A stretch of 7,732 bases of DNA from the IMG/VR virus record IMGVR_UViG_2724679236_000001, positions 1 through 7,732 of that record; one strand, 5' to 3'. The number at the start of each line of letters is the position of its first letter. Within the stretch, counting starts at the first letter, position 1. Positions 740 through 6,924 of this stretch are shown one piece after another. Made by a program: the position numbers and the translations under genes. The notes below the pieces were generated by a model. It did no database searches and was not told the origin of the DNA. It saw only the letters and a program-made list of their open reading frames with translations. This stretch comes from a virus. Lineage: Duplodnaviria; Heunggongvirae; Uroviricota; Caudoviricetes.

Positions 740-809
740 ACGGATAGTCCTGGTATTGTTCCATCACATCCTGCGGATGCTCTTCGAACTCTTCAAATTC
801 TTCTTCCAT
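723..809 (-). CDS. Tiny acidic ORF (28 aa, MEEEFEEFEEHPQDVMEQYQDYPYDYDY) overlapping the ral start by 17 nt
   Basis: Hand translation of the minus strand; ATG at 809 preceded by GAGGTGAGAT; stop at 723-725. Lambda is annotated with a comparably placed 28-codon ORF upstream of ral, as far as I recall. Below the ORF-track size cutoff. Confidence 0.3.
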   Translation of the reverse strand: MEEEFEEFEEHPQDVMEQYQDYPYDYDY

Positions 810-2531: not shown

Positions 2532-3248
<717 letters not shown>

Positions 3249-3336: not shown

Positions 3337-3546
<210 letters not shown>

Positions 3547-3639: not shown

Positions 3640-3676
3640 GAAATAGTAAGAAATGGAACAAACAAGTTACAGCAAA
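3640..3676 (-). promoter_or_regulatory. Candidate PRE-like CII-activated promoter (TTGC-N6-TTGT repeat plus -10-like TACTAT)
   Basis: Minus strand reads TTGC-TGTAAC-TTGT across plus 3662..3675, inside the 5' end of the cII-like gene as in lambda; TACTAT on the minus strand at plus 3643..3648. One repeat is imperfect. Confidence 0.3.
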
Positions 3677-3952
3677 CTATCACAGCGCGACGTTGATCGC
3701 GCAGAAACAGATTTACTCATCAACCTGTCAACGCTTACCCAGCGCGGTCTGGCAAAGATGATTGGCTGTCATGAATCGAAGATAAGCAGAACGGACTGGA
3801 GATTTATTGCTTCGGTCCTGTGTGCTTTCGGAATGGCATCAGACATCAGTCCGATTAGCAGGGCTTTTAAGTATGCGCTTGATGGAATCACCAATAAAAA
3901 ACGCCCGGTGTGCAAGACCGAGCGTTCTGATCAAATACAAATGGAATTTTAA
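3653..3952 (+). CDS. cII: CII-family transcriptional activator (99 aa)
   Basis: C-terminus ITNKKRPVCKTERSDQIQMEF closely matches the lambda CII C-terminus as I recall it (ILTNKKRPAATERSEQIQMEF); the N-terminal HTH region is divergent; position after cro/nutR is canonical. Confidence 0.75.
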   Translation: MEQTSYSKLSQRDVDRAETDLLINLSTLTQRGLAKMIGCHESKISRTDWRFIASVLCAFGMASDISPISRAFKYALDGITNKKRPVCKTERSDQIQMEF

Positions 3953-3974: not shown

Positions 3975-4118
3975 ATGCGAAAAACGCAGGAAAATAAACG
4001 CGTTAATCACCGAAAAGATGTGCTACGTGACCAGTTTTATCAGGGGGTTAATCCAGCAATAGCTGTGCCACTGAGAGAGATACTTAACAGGTACAAAACT
4101 TCGGAGAAGTCAAAATGA
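3975..4118 (+). CDS. Small basic ORF (47 aa, MRKTQENKRVNHRKDVLRDQFYQGVNPAIAVPLREILNRYKTSEKSK) coupled to the replication initiator
   Basis: ATG at 3975 with GAGG 7 nt upstream; stop TGA 4116..4118 overlaps the ATG of the next gene (ATGA). The supplied ORF 3807..4118 is this frame extended back into cII; I take the real start as 3975. Confidence 0.4.
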   Translation: MRKTQENKRVNHRKDVLRDQFYQGVNPAIAVPLREILNRYKTSEKSK

Positions 4119-4933
4119 GCATGAATCTTATGGCTAAGGCCATGAATATAAAGGTTGGCAACCCACTGAGAAAACTGGTTCTGATTAAACTTGCCGATAA
4201 CGCCAATGATAATGGCGAATGCTGGCCTTCATATCAACATGTCGCTGACCAGTGTGAGGTGAGCAGATCGACAGTAAAAAGTCACATTAGGGCACTGGAA
4301 GAGATGGGGCTTTTGAAAAGGGAATTCAGAAGAAAAGGAGAGCTTAACCAGTCAAATGTTTTTTATCTGACATTGGATAATGCACAACAAATCCAACCAG
4401 AATCAGGTGGGGCAGGAGCTGCCCGGGGTGGGGCAGGAGCTGCCCGGGGTGGGGCAGGAGCTGCCCGGGGTGGGGCAGGAGCTGCCCTAGGGGGTGGGGC
4501 AGGAGCTGCCCCCAGAACCTATCACTCTTTTGAACCAGTCAATGAACCTAAAAACATTATGTTCGAACATGTCCGAACAGAGTGTGAAAAAACTCCTGAC
4601 CGTCACGAAGAAACCGACAAGGCATTCGAGGAAATATTCTGGTGTGCAGGCATGCGGAAAGCCGGGAAGAAAAACGCAGCTTCGGCATTCAGAACACAGT
4701 TCAGGGAATGGCGTAAAACTACCAGGGGTACGGCAAGCGAGTTTGCCACGATGCTGGCAGAAGACATCGCATGCAGGAGTGGTAAGCAGTTCGGATTCGA
4801 CAGGTTGTTACCATCTAGCTACCTGAACGGTCAACGCTGGAACGACGAGAAGCCAGAAACTATTCAACCACAATCCAAACCATCATCCGCAATCACCGTA
4901 TCGAAAACTGGCTACGTGTTTTTCGACAGGTGA
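4115..4933 (+). CDS. Replication initiator, O-like (272 aa): N-terminal winged-HTH (HTH_36-like) domain, iteron-encoded Gly/Ala-rich linker, C-terminal domain
   Basis: GGAG RBS 8 nt upstream; N-terminal LRKLVLIKLADNANDNGECWPSYQHVADQCEVSRSTVKSHIRALEEMGLL has the pattern of phage/plasmid replication-initiator HTH domains; internal tandem repeats as in lambda O; precedes a helicase gene. Not lambda O at sequence level. Confidence 0.75.
   Translation: MSMNLMAKAMNIKVGNPLRKLVLIKLADNANDNGECWPSYQHVADQCEVSRSTVKSHIRALEEMGLLKREFRRKGELNQSNVFYLTLDNAQQIQPESGGAGAARGGAGAARGGAGAARGGAGAALGGGAGAAPRTYHSFEPVNEPKNIMFEHVRTECEKTPDRHEETDKAFEEIFWCAGMRKAGKKNAASAFRTQFREWRKTTRGTASEFATMLAEDIACRSGKQFGFDRLLPSSYLNGQRWNDEKPETIQPQSKPSSAITVSKTGYVFFDR
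4406..4513. repeat. Five tandem 21-bp iterons (GGTGGGGCAGGAGCTGCCCGG) inside the initiator gene: candidate origin of replication
   Basis: Units at 4406, 4427, 4448 and 4469, with a fifth at 4493 after a 3-bp insertion; first three identical, last two with 2-bp end changes. Each unit contains the dyad GGGCAG-gag-CTGCCC; in frame the array encodes GGAGAAR repeats; an AT-rich stretch follows (about 4530..4600). Confidence 0.7.
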
Positions 4934-4936
4934 ACC

Positions 4937-5044
4937 ATGAAATCCAGAATCAAATCGTTACTTATCGCTGGCTATAACCATGGCTGGCTTAGTTCTGCAT
5001 TCGTTGAGTTCTGGTTTAACCGTCTCGATCTGAGGTCAGCGTAA
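4937..5044 (+). CDS. Possible small ORF (35 aa, MKSRIKSLLIAGYNHGWLSSAFVEFWFNRLDLRSA) between initiator and helicase
   Basis: ATG 4 nt after the initiator stop; its TAA stop overlaps the ATG of the primase-helicase (TAATG). No homolog recognised; could be chance. Confidence 0.2.
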   Translation: MKSRIKSLLIAGYNHGWLSSAFVEFWFNRLDLRSA

Positions 5045-6924
5045 TGACTCCAAGTGAACTGAGCGACCTGCTTTGGGCGCAGGTTGACAGGGTGGCTCCG
5101 CACCTGTTGCCAAACGGCAAGAAAGAGGGGCATGAGTGGGTTGCCGGTAACGTCAACGGTGACAAGGGAAACAGCCTTAAGGTCAACCTTAGCGGCAAGA
5201 AAAAATGGGCTGATTTCGCTGAGGGAGACGGCGGTGACATGCTTGATTTGTGGATGGCATGTCGTGGGATTAACCTGCATCAGGCTATGCAGGAAGCGAA
5301 AGCATTTCTCGGTATCAAGGATGACGATCACCATTTCGATGCCAAACGTGAGAAAAAATTCTCCAGACCTGATCGCAAGAAAATCGCCCGCTACGTTACC
5401 AGAACAGAATCCCATCTTGAGTACCTGCAATCGCGTGGCATATCGCCAGAAATCGTAAAGCGCTACGAGGTTGTCAGCGGCAAGGTGTGGAATGGAGAGC
5501 GGGAACTGGATGCTCTGGTGATTCCGTACAAACGCGATGGTGAGTTGTTGCAGGTCAAGCGAATCAGCACTGAGCGCCCGGACGGGAAGAAAGTCATTAT
5601 GGCAGAAGGTGATTGCGAACCTTGTCTGTTCGGATGGCAGGCTCTGGACGCTGGCGTGAGGGCGGTTGTACTTTGCGAAGGCGAAATTGATTGTATGAGC
5701 TATGCGCAATACGGCATCTCGGCGTTATCCGTGCCGTTTGGTGGCGGGAAAGGCGCTAAGCAACAGTGGATTGAGTTTGAGTATCACAACCTCGACAGGT
5801 TTGAGGAAATATTCATCTCGATGGACGTTGATGATGTTGGTCGTGAAGCCGCAAGGGAAATCGCAAGCCGACTCGGTGAACATCGTTGCCGTCTTGTTAC
5901 TCTGCCGTACAAAGACATCAACGAATGCCTGATGAACGGTGTTACCGAGGATGAAATCTGGCAGTACATCGGCACGGCATCCTACTTCGATCCTGAAGAA
6001 CTCTACAGCGCGCGAGAGTTTTACCAGGACACTATCAACGCTTTCTACGGCAAGCAGCAGTATCTGTTTAATCCACCGTGGGAATCTCTGGCAGATAAAT
6101 TCCAGTTCCGTGAGGCAGAGTTGACGCTGGTCAATGGTGTGAACGGTCACGGAAAAACGGAGGTTGTCGGGCATATGGCACTTGAGGCAATGCGTCAGGG
6201 TGTGAAGACATGCATCGCGTCACTTGAGCTGAAGCCTGGTATTCTCCTTAAGCGCCTTACCCGTCAGGCGACGTGCTGCAAGATGCCGCCAGTGCTGGAA
6301 ATTGACTCTGCATTTAAATTTTATGACGAAAGACTTTGGGTGTTTGGCCTGACCGGAACGGCGAAAGCCGACAGGCTGATCGAAATATTCGACTACGCTC
6401 GCCGCCGATACGGGATCCAGTTATTCATCATCGACAGCCTGATGAAATGTGGCATAGGCGACGATGACTATAACGGGCAGAAGGCGTTTGTTGACTCGAT
6501 TTGCGACTTCAAAAACAAAACAAACTCCCACGTCATTCTCGTTACTCACTCGCGAAAAGGAGACAGCGAAGAAAAACCAACCGGGAAAATGGACGTAAAA
6601 GGCTCTGGAGCGATAACAGACCTGACAGACAACCTTTTTATCATCTGGCGTAACAAGGCTCGCGAGAGAGCGTTACAGAGAGTTCAGAGTGGTGAAAAGA
6701 TGTCAGAGAAGGACGAACAGCTACTGGCATCTCCTGCATCTGTTTTGATGCTTGAAAAACAACGTAACGGCGAAGGTTGGGAAGGTGGTGTCCCGTTGTT
6801 CCTTGACGAGCAATCGCACCAGTTCCTGCAACTTGAATCAGGATCGCCATATAGCTACATCGCCAATATGCCGAAATCGGAATATGACGAGGCGTGGCGA
6901 CAGGAAAACGTGACGGAGTATTAA
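5044..6924 (+). CDS. Bifunctional replicative primase-helicase (626 aa): toprim primase domain fused to DnaB-like (RecA-fold) helicase domain
   Basis: Toprim motifs CEGEID (5674..5691) and DVDDVG (5824..5841); Walker A GVNGHGKT (6136..6159); Walker B-like LFIIDS; DnaB-like KGSGAITDLTDNLFII and EKQRNG. N-terminus has the spacing of a DnaG zinc ribbon but without the cysteines. Confidence 0.8.
   Translation: MTPSELSDLLWAQVDRVAPHLLPNGKKEGHEWVAGNVNGDKGNSLKVNLSGKKKWADFAEGDGGDMLDLWMACRGINLHQAMQEAKAFLGIKDDDHHFDAKREKKFSRPDRKKIARYVTRTESHLEYLQSRGISPEIVKRYEVVSGKVWNGERELDALVIPYKRDGELLQVKRISTERPDGKKVIMAEGDCEPCLFGWQALDAGVRAVVLCEGEIDCMSYAQYGISALSVPFGGGKGAKQQWIEFEYHNLDRFEEIFISMDVDDVGREAAREIASRLGEHRCRLVTLPYKDINECLMNGVTEDEIWQYIGTASYFDPEELYSAREFYQDTINAFYGKQQYLFNPPWESLADKFQFREAELTLVNGVNGHGKTEVVGHMALEAMRQGVKTCIASLELKPGILLKRLTRQATCCKMPPVLEIDSAFKFYDERLWVFGLTGTAKADRLIEIFDYARRRYGIQLFIIDSLMKCGIGDDDYNGQKAFVDSICDFKNKTNSHVILVTHSRKGDSEEKPTGKMDVKGSGAITDLTDNLFIIWRNKARERALQRVQSGEKMSEKDEQLLASPASVLMLEKQRNGEGWEGGVPLFLDEQSHQFLQLESGSPYSYIANMPKSEYDEAWRQENVTEY

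What the first reader, a model, noticed from the sequence alone, without database searches (positions are those of the whole stretch)
4406..4600. Five 21-bp dyad-containing iterons inside the initiator gene, followed by an AT-rich stretch: probable origin of replication
A near-perfect 21-bp tandem array sits in the middle of the O-like initiator gene. Each unit contains the inverted repeat GGGCAG/CTGCCC; in frame the array encodes a GGAGAAR x4-5 low-complexity linker. This mirrors lambda ori, where iterons lie within O and are bound by O dimers, with an adjacent AT-rich unwinding element. The 21-bp period and the sequence differ from the lambda iterons I remember, implying a distinct initiator-origin specificity. 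The 3-bp insertion before the fifth repeat and the degenerate ends of repeats 4 and 5 suggest slippage, so copy number may vary between relatives.
Basis: partly seen in the sequence, partly recalled or inferred. Interest (0 to 1): 0.6.

Follow-up and report, generated by a model that had tools for sequence, protein, structure and literature searches.

The report
Replication origin inside a prophage initiator gene
Five identical 21-bp repeats inside a prophage replication-initiator gene are very probably the initiator's own binding sites, so the phage's replication origin lies there as in phage lambda, but with an unrelated DNA-binding domain and a strictly conserved DNA block beside the repeats.

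Summary
A 21-bp unit (GGTGGGGCAGGAGCTGCCCGG, dyad GGGCAG/CTGCCC) occurs 5 times at 4406-4512, in frame, inside the initiator gene 4115-4933. Chance expects 0.05 matches.

The origin reading is well supported by comparison, but not by experiment:
- **Position.** The array sits where annotated lambda-type iterons sit in mosaic relatives (ES18 gp59, Sf101). These share only the C-terminal half of the gene, from 4549 onward.
- **Family pattern.** In 119 distinct arrays from homologous HTH_36 initiators, 3-5 dyad repeats spaced 21-24 bp follow the DNA-binding domain.
- **Covariation.** The repeat sequence changes with the predicted recognition helix.
- **DNA-level signal.** In 22/23-bp-spaced arrays the same DNA motif falls in different reading frames.
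- **Copy number.** In the window's own clade it runs from 1 to 9.

The "AT-rich stretch" is only moderately AT-rich (30% GC over 40 bp). The real feature there is a 38-bp block (4511-4548, GAACCAGTCA-type 12-mers) with no synonymous variation across 30 diverged genes. The 24-bp last spacing with a G5 tract is a conserved family trait, not repeat decay.

The initiator is not a lambda O homologue in its DNA-binding domain. The module is the "Eru5" unit of Stx phages, for which I found no described origin.

The parts
4115..4933 (+). Replication initiator gene (272 aa). It has an N-terminal winged-helix HTH_36 domain, a Gly/Ala linker encoded by the repeats, and a C-terminal domain.
   Evidence: ORF; Pfam HTH_36 E=5.8e-14 at residues 17-67; PHROG 4617/270/8540 'replication initiation protein / O-like'; 93-97% identical to 'O' of Stx2 phages phi24B, Min27 and Stx2a_F403.
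4115..4405 (+). Coding region of the N-terminal DNA-binding domain (residues 1-97). Residues 3-47 are nearly invariant in the family. Residues 48-72 (predicted recognition helix RSTVKSHIRAL and the start of the wing) are hypervariable.
   Evidence: Alignment A1/A2. Column entropy is 0.46 bits for residues 3-47, 1.21 for 48-62 and 1.38 for 63-72 over 69 unique sequences.
4406..4512 (.). Array of five 21-bp dyad repeats, the putative iterons. Cores GGGGCAGGAGCTGCCC lie at 4409-4424, 4430-4445, 4451-4466, 4472-4487 and 4496-4511, spaced 21, 21, 21 and 24 bp.
   Evidence: It occupies the same position as the lambda-type iterons of ES18 and Sf101. The GGGGCAG core is conserved in non-identical repeats of 78-84%-identical relatives.
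4488..4495 (.). Spacer TAGGGGGT with a G5 tract, which sets the last iteron 24 bp from the fourth.
   Evidence: Sequence. The last spacing is 24 bp in 85 arrays, and a G5 or C5 tract precedes the last repeat in 105 of 119 arrays.
4511..4548 (.). Conserved block CCCAGAACCTATCACTCTTTTGAACCAGTCAATGAACC (peptide PRTYHSFEPVNEP). It contains 12-mers at 4514-4525 (variant) and 4532-4543, then GAACC at 4544-4548. Proposed site of melting or helicase entry.
   Evidence: None of the 12 codons shows synonymous variation in 30 dereplicated genes. The top-codon fraction is 0.57 in conserved N-terminal codons.
4549..4580 (.). A-rich run (TAAAAACATTATG) plus the palindrome ATGTTCGAACAT (4559-4570) and its 10-bp repeat. 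This is the start of the module shared with ES18-type initiators. Together with the block it forms the least stable DNA next to the array.
   Evidence: TRF 4559-4579; hairpin 4560-4579; homology with ES18/Sf101 begins at about 4548; 40-bp GC minimum of 0.30 at 4520-4559.
4549..4933 (+). C-terminal module of the initiator. In ES18, epsilon34, g341c, Sf101 and mEp043 it is fused to lambda-O-type N-terminal domains (92-97% DNA identity). It presumably recruits the primase-helicase.
   Evidence: Megablast matches to query 435-819 only; annotations of ES18 gp59 and gp61.
4937..5044 (+). 35-aa ORF between initiator and helicase (counterpart of ES18 gp60); function unknown.
   Evidence: phrog_21848 E=2.4e-28; gp60 at the same position in ES18.
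5044..6924 (+). Toprim primase fused to a DnaB/gp4-like helicase (626 aa), the replicative partner of the initiator.
   Evidence: Pfam Toprim_2, AAA_25, DnaB_C; phrog_239 'DNA primase/helicase' E=1.5e-171.

Best explanation
The array is the initiator-binding part of the prophage's replication origin.

Shown:
- Five phased dyad repeats lie inside the initiator gene, immediately after its winged-helix domain.
- Homologous initiators all carry such arrays, and the repeat sequence tracks the recognition helix.
- A strictly conserved DNA block and a moderately unstable A-rich/palindromic stretch follow the array.
- The C-terminal half of the protein is the one that lambda-O-type chimeras (ES18 gp59) use with the same primase-helicase.

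Inferred mechanism:
1. Dimers of the N-terminal domain bind each GGGGCAG-GAG-CTGCCC dyad.
2. A 21-bp spacing is two helical turns, so the dimers sit on one face of the DNA and build an O-some-like wrapped complex.
3. The strain melts the adjacent block and A-rich region (4511-4580).
4. The C-terminal domain brings in the phage's own primase-helicase (5044-6924). No P-like or DnaC-like loader is encoded between the initiator and the helicase.

Because the sites are also codons, each unit adds 7 residues of Gly/Ala linker. Slippage therefore changes the number of sites and the linker length together.
For: - **Not chance.** Five exact cores against 0.05 expected.
- **Positional equivalence.** ES18 gp59 and Sf101 gp44 share window 4549-4933 at 92-97% identity. 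Just upstream of that junction they carry four lambda-type iterons spaced 20/24/23 bp, annotated as rep_origin 'similar to lambda ori' in ES18 and as the gene 50 protein binding site in epsilon34.
- **Family-wide architecture.** 119 distinct arrays; spacings of 21-24 bp make up 277 of 363 intervals; 4-5 copies is typical. More distant HTH_36 initiators (SfIV, phiP27 L17, Burkholderia vB_E174) also carry internal arrays.
- **Covariation.** RS[TS]VK.H goes with GGGGC[AG]G. KRSVM and RRSVM go with GTGCAG..T.CAC. KSAV[KR] goes with [TC][AG]TGCC...GCACA. KRTAMR goes with AGTGAC..GTCAC. DRSTVR goes with GTAGGC. Variability is concentrated in residues 48-72.
- **DNA-level selection.** L036 differs by 25% in codons 3-47 yet its last iteron is 23/23 identical. 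ZF40 is closer in those codons (79%) but has another helix and a 48%-identical site. Spacings of 22 or 23 bp (55 of the 363 intervals) put the same motif in two reading frames.
- **Minimal arrays.** Published work on lambda, as cited in PMC7466680, reports that the two iterons next to the AT-rich region suffice for unwinding in vitro. That fits the natural 2-copy arrays.
Against: - No experiment exists: no binding, melting or replication data for this family were found.
- The five units are identical, as expected for a recently expanded coding VNTR.
- Natural variants with a single unit exist (L023, L024, L027). That is fewer sites than lambda needs, and those prophages may or may not replicate.
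- One lineage carries CTGACC in all units, which weakens the dyad with no compensating change.
- The neighbouring DNA is only moderately AT-rich.
- Helix/iteron covariation is confounded by shared ancestry. Iteron identity correlates as well with background divergence (rho 0.55) as with helix identity (rho 0.48).
Confidence: 0.75

Rival explanations
1. A purely coding VNTR. The repeats only encode a flexible Gly/Ala linker of variable length between two protein domains, the dyad is a by-product of GGN/GCN codons, and the origin lies elsewhere.
For: The units are identical and in frame, the copy number is polymorphic from 1 to 9, and one variant weakens the dyad in all copies. Gly/Ala codons are intrinsically self-complementary.
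Against: Homologues have non-identical repeats that keep a DNA core while the peptide changes. In 22/23-bp-spaced arrays the core falls in different reading frames. Repeat sequence tracks the recognition helix. The position equals that of true lambda iterons in mosaic relatives.
Confidence: 0.07
2. The repeats are initiator-binding sites but are not the start site. They would act as regulatory iterons (autoregulation, initiator titration, handcuffing or exclusion of related phages), while unwinding happens at another locus.
For: Lambda iterons cloned on plasmids inhibit replication of rep-lambda phages (PMC3349717). Variable copy number would suit a titration role. The adjacent DNA is not strongly AT-rich.
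Against: The conserved block, A-run and palindrome next to the array reproduce the lambda/ES18 origin layout. No other iteron-like site exists in the 7.7-kb window. The two roles are not mutually exclusive.
Confidence: 0.1
3. The conserved block and array mark a recombination junction, a 'linker' that promotes exchange of N-terminal and C-terminal modules between phages, and have no replication role.
For: Module boundaries fall here. Homology with the ES18 type starts at about 4548. C-terminal domains and helicase partners differ downstream of the block: DnaB-like, P-like loader or primase-helicase.
Against: Recombination alone does not explain zero synonymous change across phages of Vibrio, Pseudomonas, Pasteurellaceae and Enterobacteria, nor the helix/repeat covariation. 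It is compatible with the origin function rather than an alternative to it.
Confidence: 0.05

Closest known systems
Phage lambda origin (ori-lambda inside gene O: four dyad iterons, an AT-rich region and an inverted repeat), and its variants in 933W/P27 with six iterons
   Same: Iterons lie inside the initiator gene, between the DNA-binding N-domain and the partner-recruiting C-domain. Each repeat is dyad-symmetric. Spacing is about two helical turns. Less stable DNA and a palindrome follow. The iterons also encode the interdomain linker, so extra iterons lengthen the protein (PMC7466680).
   Different: The DNA-binding domain is HTH_36, not Phage_rep_O. The iteron sequence is unrelated and GC-rich (77% GC). 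The units are identical and number 1-9. A sequence-conserved 38-bp block occupies the place of the simple AT-rich tract. The partner is a primase-helicase, not P plus host DnaB.
ES18 gp59 / epsilon34 gp50 / Sf101 gp44 replication module (lambda-O N-domain and iterons fused to this window's C-terminal module, followed by gp60 and a primase-helicase)
   Same: The C-terminal half (4549-4933), the small ORF and the primase-helicase are 92-97% identical. An origin is annotated at the equivalent place.
   Different: The N-terminal domain and the iterons are swapped as a unit: ATCCCTCAAAACGAGGGA in ES18 and TGTCACCAAAACGGTGACA in Sf101. Those phages also lack the GAACCAGTCA block.
Eru5 replication unit of Shiga-toxin phages (Stx2a_F403, phi24B, Min27)
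   Same: Same genes. The initiator is 93% identical and carries 3 repeat units instead of 5.
   Different: The papers that define the Eru types mention neither iterons, nor repeats, nor an origin of replication, and state that nothing is known about the replication proteins of Eru phages (PMC8951638).
Iteron plasmids (pPS10 RepA, F RepE, R6K pi, RK2 TrfA)
   Same: Winged-helix initiators bind about 20-bp phased repeats next to an unwinding element made of repeated 13-mers. Full dyads and half sites coexist in some relatives of this window's array.
   Different: No Rep_3-type domain is detected. The origin lies inside the coding sequence. No DnaA boxes were seen by eye.

Membership tests
Lambda-type origin architecture (origin inside the initiator gene) | At least two phased direct repeats with internal dyad symmetry, located inside the initiator ORF between the N- and C-terminal domains | tested here: met
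   Five cores spaced 21/21/21/24 bp at 4409-4511, in codons 98-133 of a 272-codon gene.
Lambda-type origin architecture (origin inside the initiator gene) | Same position as proven or annotated iterons in homologous genes | tested here: met
   The ES18, epsilon34 and Sf101 iterons end about 37 bp before the shared C-terminal module begins, as the window's array does.
Lambda-type origin architecture (origin inside the initiator gene) | Strongly AT-rich unwinding region directly downstream of the iterons | tested here: inconclusive
   The 40-bp minimum is 30% GC (4.5th percentile of the window) and the 100-bp value is background. A conserved non-AT-rich block occupies most of the space.
Lambda-type origin architecture (origin inside the initiator gene) | The initiator binds the repeats, and the fragment supports replication | not testable with these tools
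   Only indirect support is available: helix/repeat covariation and DNA-level conservation.
Lambda O protein family (Pfam PF04492 Phage_rep_O / TIGR01610) | N-terminal domain matches the Phage_rep_O profile | tested here: not met
   The window protein has no hit at E<=0.01, while ES18 and Sf101 score 1e-35 to 1e-38. hhalign of the two N-domain alignments gives probability 0.3%.
HTH_36 phage replication initiators (PF13730; PHROG 4617/270/8540) | HTH_36 winged-helix domain at the N-terminus, in a gene that lies in the early-right operon after cII and before a helicase or loader gene | tested here: met
   HTH_36 at 52 bits against a cut-off of 25; PHROG E-values from 1e-49 to 1e-81; gene order cI, cro, cII, initiator, primase-helicase.
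Eru5 replication unit of Stx phages | HTH_36 protein followed by a primase gene next to the immunity region, homologous to Stx2a_F403 (AP012529) | tested here: met
   93.4% DNA identity over the whole initiator gene to AP012529. The definition is in PMC8951638. No stx gene lies in this window, so 'Stx phage' itself is not shown.
Plasmid iteron replicons (Rep_3 / RepA-type) | Rep_3-type initiator with two winged-helix domains | tested here: not met
   No such Pfam hit; only single HTH families are matched.
Coding tandem repeat (VNTR) in a linker | In-frame identical units with copy-number polymorphism among near-identical alleles | tested here: met
   1, 2, 3, 4, 5, 7 and 9 units in genes at least 93% identical. 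This is true in addition to the cis-acting role, not instead of it.

The most novel reading that the evidence does not exclude
The 38-bp block after the iterons (AGAACCAGTCAC-TCTTYT-GAACCAGTCAAT-GAACC) is a sequence-specific initiation element shared by a large family of HTH_36 phage initiators across Enterobacteria, Vibrio, Pseudomonas and Pasteurellaceae. It would be read by the invariant first 47 residues of the initiator, possibly as single-stranded DNA, or by a host factor. It would take the place of a generic AT-rich unwinding element. The origin would then need two keys: swappable helix/iteron pairs that set specificity, and an invariant protein-surface/DNA-block pair that performs melting or helicase entry whichever helicase system is attached.
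Probability: 0.4. Interest if true: 0.7.

Novelty: new variant of a known kind. Interest (0 to 1): 0.55.

Why it matters
Phages with this module include Stx2a-converting phages of outbreak E. coli O157:H7 (Eru5 type). Toxin output depends on phage replication, yet the papers that define these replication units say nothing is known about how they replicate (PMC8951638).

Placing the origin gives a concrete cis element to test. It also gives a natural allelic series of 1 to 9 sites that may tune replication, and so possibly toxin dose.

More generally, the family offers a readable code of recognition helices paired with iterons. It also shows an unusually clear case of DNA-level constraint inside a coding region. 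The conserved block can be tested cleanly, because synonymous recoding would change the DNA without changing the protein.

Tried and rejected
- **Rfam**, whole window: no match.
- **RNA or ssDNA structure as the main explanation:** the fold z-score is only -2.5 with an empty centroid over the array, as expected from simple dyads.
- **Literature:** searches for iterons or origins in phi24B, Eru, SfV and ES18-type phages, and for the repeat and block sequences as text, found nothing on this origin. One search was too loose and uninformative.
- **PDB sequence search:** only noise from the low-complexity linker.
- **Remote homology to the lambda O N-domain by hhalign:** none detected, though the profiles are shallow.
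- **Statistical separation of helix/iteron covariation from phylogeny:** inconclusive, because both predictors correlate with iteron identity. I rely on specific contrasts instead.
- **First block analysis:** it used a DNA pattern that biased some codon positions. I repeated it with a protein-level anchor and got the same result.
- **Plasmid search with the N-domain:** it found about 40-kb 'plasmid' records that look like circular phage genomes. This was not informative for origin function and I did not pursue it.
- **Not run:** structure prediction and the large protein searches, because they would not decide the question.

Full report
**What is in the window.** The window is the immunity and replication region of a lambdoid prophage. 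The genes are:
- a cI-like repressor (2532-3245, minus strand);
- cro (3346-3546);
- cII (3653-3952);
- a 272-aa gene (4115-4933) whose only Pfam domain is an N-terminal HTH_36 winged helix;
- a 35-aa ORF (4937-5044);
- a 626-aa Toprim plus DnaB-like primase-helicase (5044-6924).

PHROG families call the 272-aa protein a replication initiator or "O-like".

**Checking the observation.**
- Tandem Repeats Finder reports a 21-bp unit, GGTGGGGCAGGAGCTGCCCGG, 4.9 times at 4406-4511.
- The 16-bp core GGGGCAGGAGCTGCCC occurs exactly five times, spaced 21, 21, 21 and 24 bp. Shuffles expect 0.05 matches, and there is no other site in the window at up to three mismatches.
- Each unit carries the dyad GGGCAG/CTGCCC. 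The array is in frame and encodes GGAGAAR-type heptads.
- The "AT-rich stretch" is weaker than described. It has 43% GC at 100-bp resolution, which is background. The 40-bp minimum is 30% GC at 4520-4559, the 4.5th percentile of the window.

**Close relatives and copy number.** The same gene occurs in Stx2-converting phages (phi24B, Min27, Stx2a_F403/F451, Stx2_EH2085/EH2086/16002) and in about 100 complete E. coli genomes at full length.
- Near-identical alleles carry different numbers of units: phi24B 3, the window 5, Stx2_EH2085 7, E. coli 07_3636 9, Salmonella phage SI5 2. IMG/VR prophages carry 1, 2, 3 or 4.
- In Stx2_EH2085 all seven units carry CTGACC instead of CTGCCC, so the units evolve in concert.

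**Positional argument.** Megablast shows a second class of relatives that match only from query base 435 (window 4549) onward. These are ES18, epsilon34, g341c, SEN22, Sf101 and mEp043.
- Their N-terminal domain is the true lambda O domain (Phage_rep_O, TIGR01610). The window protein does not match it, and profile-profile comparison finds no relationship.
- Immediately upstream of the shared part, ES18 has four lambda-type iterons (ATCCCTCAAAACGAGGGA, spaced 20/24/23 bp), annotated as rep_origin "similar to lambda ori". Epsilon34 annotates the same stretch as the binding site of its gene 50 protein. Sf101 has four iterons of a different sequence (TGTCACCAAAACGGTGACA).
- In an alignment, the window's array occupies that same slot. 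The homology starts at TAAAAACATTATG, and a palindrome follows in all of them.
- So a DNA-binding domain and its repeats have been exchanged as one unit in front of a constant C-terminal domain, small ORF and primase-helicase.

**Family-wide argument.** tblastn with the N-terminal 97 residues finds 357 phage records.
- Eight diverged homologues, 49-72% identical in the N-terminal domain and infecting Pectobacterium, Klebsiella, Pseudomonas, Vibrio, Shigella, Aggregatibacter and E. coli, each carry 3-5 dyad repeats right after the domain. The repeat sequence differs between them.
- Eighty IMG/VR loci found with the N-domain alignment, plus 120 loci found with a DNA pattern for the downstream block, give 119 distinct arrays.
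- Spacings of 21-24 bp account for 277 of 363 intervals, and 4-5 copies is typical. The last interval is 24 bp in 85 arrays. A G5 or C5 tract precedes the last repeat in 105 of 119 arrays.
- The window's "3-bp insertion" is therefore conserved architecture.
- More distant HTH_36 initiators (SfIV gp41, phiP27 L17, Burkholderia vB_E174) also have internal arrays, with 15-bp or 21-bp periods.

**Evidence that the repeats act as DNA.**
1. Relatives 78-84% identical to the window protein, with the helix signature RSTVK.H, keep GGGGCAG in repeats that are not identical to each other. The right halves are CTGCCC, ATAACC, CTGACC or ATGACC.
2. Some arrays have 23 + 22 bp spacing, for example L046 in the window's specificity class, and RothD. 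There the same DNA motif lies in two reading frames and encodes different peptides.
3. L036 differs from the window by 25% in codons 3-47, yet its last repeat is identical at 23 of 23 positions. ZF40 is closer in those codons (79%) but has a different helix, and its site is only 48% identical.
4. Variability in the N-domain is concentrated in residues 48-72, the predicted recognition helix and the start of the wing. Residues 3-47 are almost invariant.
5. Helix classes pair with repeat classes:
   - RS[TS]VK.H with GGGGC[AG]G;
   - KRSVM/RRSVM with GTGCAG..T.CAC, shared by Shigella SfV and Pseudomonas PseuP_222;
   - KSAV[KR] with TGCC...GCACA;
   - KRTAMR with AGTGAC..GTCAC;
   - DRSTVR with GTAGGC.

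A global correlation could not separate this pairing from shared ancestry. The covariation is therefore supportive, not proof.

**The neighbouring element.** A block follows every array: CCCAGAACCAGTCACTCTTYTGAACCAGTCAWTGAACC, encoding PRTSHSxEPVxEP.
- The window has the variant AGAACCTATCAC at 4514-4525.
- I anchored the block on the protein motif only. In 30 dereplicated genes each of the 12 codons then appears as a single codon. Conserved residues of the N-domain use their commonest codon only 57% of the time.
- The amino-acid changes that do occur fall in the TCTTYT spacer.
- Of the 120 pattern hits in IMG/VR, 110 carry this family's N-terminal motif. The other 10 are cut at a contig end or narrowly miss my motif pattern.
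- The block is independent of the helicase system downstream: DnaB-like, P-like loader or primase-helicase.
- The most diverged N-domain (mEp044) also has the most diverged block.
- I infer that the block is a cis-acting DNA element tied to the invariant part of the initiator or to a host factor. It occupies the place of the lambda AT-rich region.

**Mechanism proposed (inferred).**
1. Initiator dimers bind the five dyads on one face of the helix, since 21 bp is two turns.
2. The resulting complex destabilises the block and A-rich region at 4511-4580.
3. The C-terminal domain recruits the phage primase-helicase.

Lambda work cited in PMC7466680 reports that the two iterons next to the AT-rich region suffice for unwinding in vitro. 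It also reports that extra iterons lengthen O. Both points parallel the natural 2-copy arrays and the coupling of sites to linker length seen here. Single-copy alleles are the main unexplained point.

**Comparison with the literature.** The module equals the "Eru5" replication unit of Stx phages (reference Stx2a_F403). The defining papers list an HTH_36 protein and a primase, state that nothing is known about replication proteins of Eru phages, and mention neither iterons, nor repeats, nor an origin of replication (PMC8951638, PMC8044961). Text searches for the repeat and block sequences found nothing relevant. Subscription-journal papers are not covered, so an earlier description cannot be excluded.

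**Verdict.** This is a lambda-style origin inside the initiator gene, built on a different DNA-binding domain. It has its own iterons and a sequence-specific companion block. It is a new variant of a known kind. Confidence in the origin reading is about 0.75, and all functional steps remain to be tested.

Noticed in passing
window 4511-4548; L010-L016, L033-L217: A 38-bp block after the repeats (GAACCAGTCA-type 12-mers, peptide PRTSHSxEPVxEP) shows no synonymous variation across 30 diverged genes from phages of several bacterial orders.
   Followed up: yes
window 4488-4495; 119 arrays in L018-L217: The last repeat is set 24 bp from the previous one and is preceded by a G5 or C5 tract in 105 of 119 arrays. 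The tract occurs in either orientation, which suggests a structural rather than a coding role.
   Followed up: partly
window 3898-3928 (minus strand): A strong terminator-like hairpin with a T-run lies antisense to the 3' end of cII. From memory it resembles the lambda oop terminator, so an OOP-like antisense RNA is probably encoded here. Rfam gave no hit.
   Followed up: no
window 4559-4579: A perfect 12-bp palindrome, ATGTTCGAACAT, with a 10-bp direct repeat lies just after the A-run. ES18 and Sf101 have an inverted repeat at the same place (ACATTATGTCCGAA/TTCGGACGAAGTGT). From memory this parallels the inverted repeat to the right of ori-lambda.
   Followed up: partly
L006 1879-1964 (Sf101); same in mEp043 (L009): A lambda-O-type N-domain is paired with four iterons of non-lambda sequence (TGTCACCAAAACGGTGACA), at the same 20/24/23 bp spacing as in ES18. 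This is a second specificity within the Phage_rep_O family.
   Followed up: partly
L022, L047 (IMG/VR prophages): Some alleles are truncated inside the array. L022 (122 aa) has a deletion that starts in the G5 spacer. L047 (123 aa) has one base fewer in both the G5 and the C5 runs. The array and its homopolymers may be mutational hot spots, or these may be sequencing errors.
   Followed up: no
L220 1482-1601 (phiP27 L17, NC_003356): The RefSeq phiP27 record has an HTH_36-type gene with 15-bp dyad repeats (TGACCCGTCAGATTCTGA) followed by a DnaC-like loader. The 'P27' O protein studied in PMC7466680 has lambda-type iterons. I did not resolve the discrepancy.
   Followed up: no
E. coli 07_3636 (L004) and SJ2D: Single genomes hold 4-5 separate places that match this gene, at least its C-terminal module. 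Several co-resident prophages therefore share parts of this replication module, which raises the possibility of cross-talk or incompatibility.
   Followed up: no
(PLSDB records, e.g. Arsenophonus nasoniae 38-48 kb, E. coli NZ_CP148393 44.6 kb): About 40-kb circular 'plasmid' records encode this initiator family. They may be phage-plasmids or circular phage genomes assembled as plasmids.
   Followed up: no
window 780-803: A short 9-bp tandem repeat, CTCTTCAAA x 2.7 (TRF score 34), lies far from the finding. It may well be a chance match.
   Followed up: no
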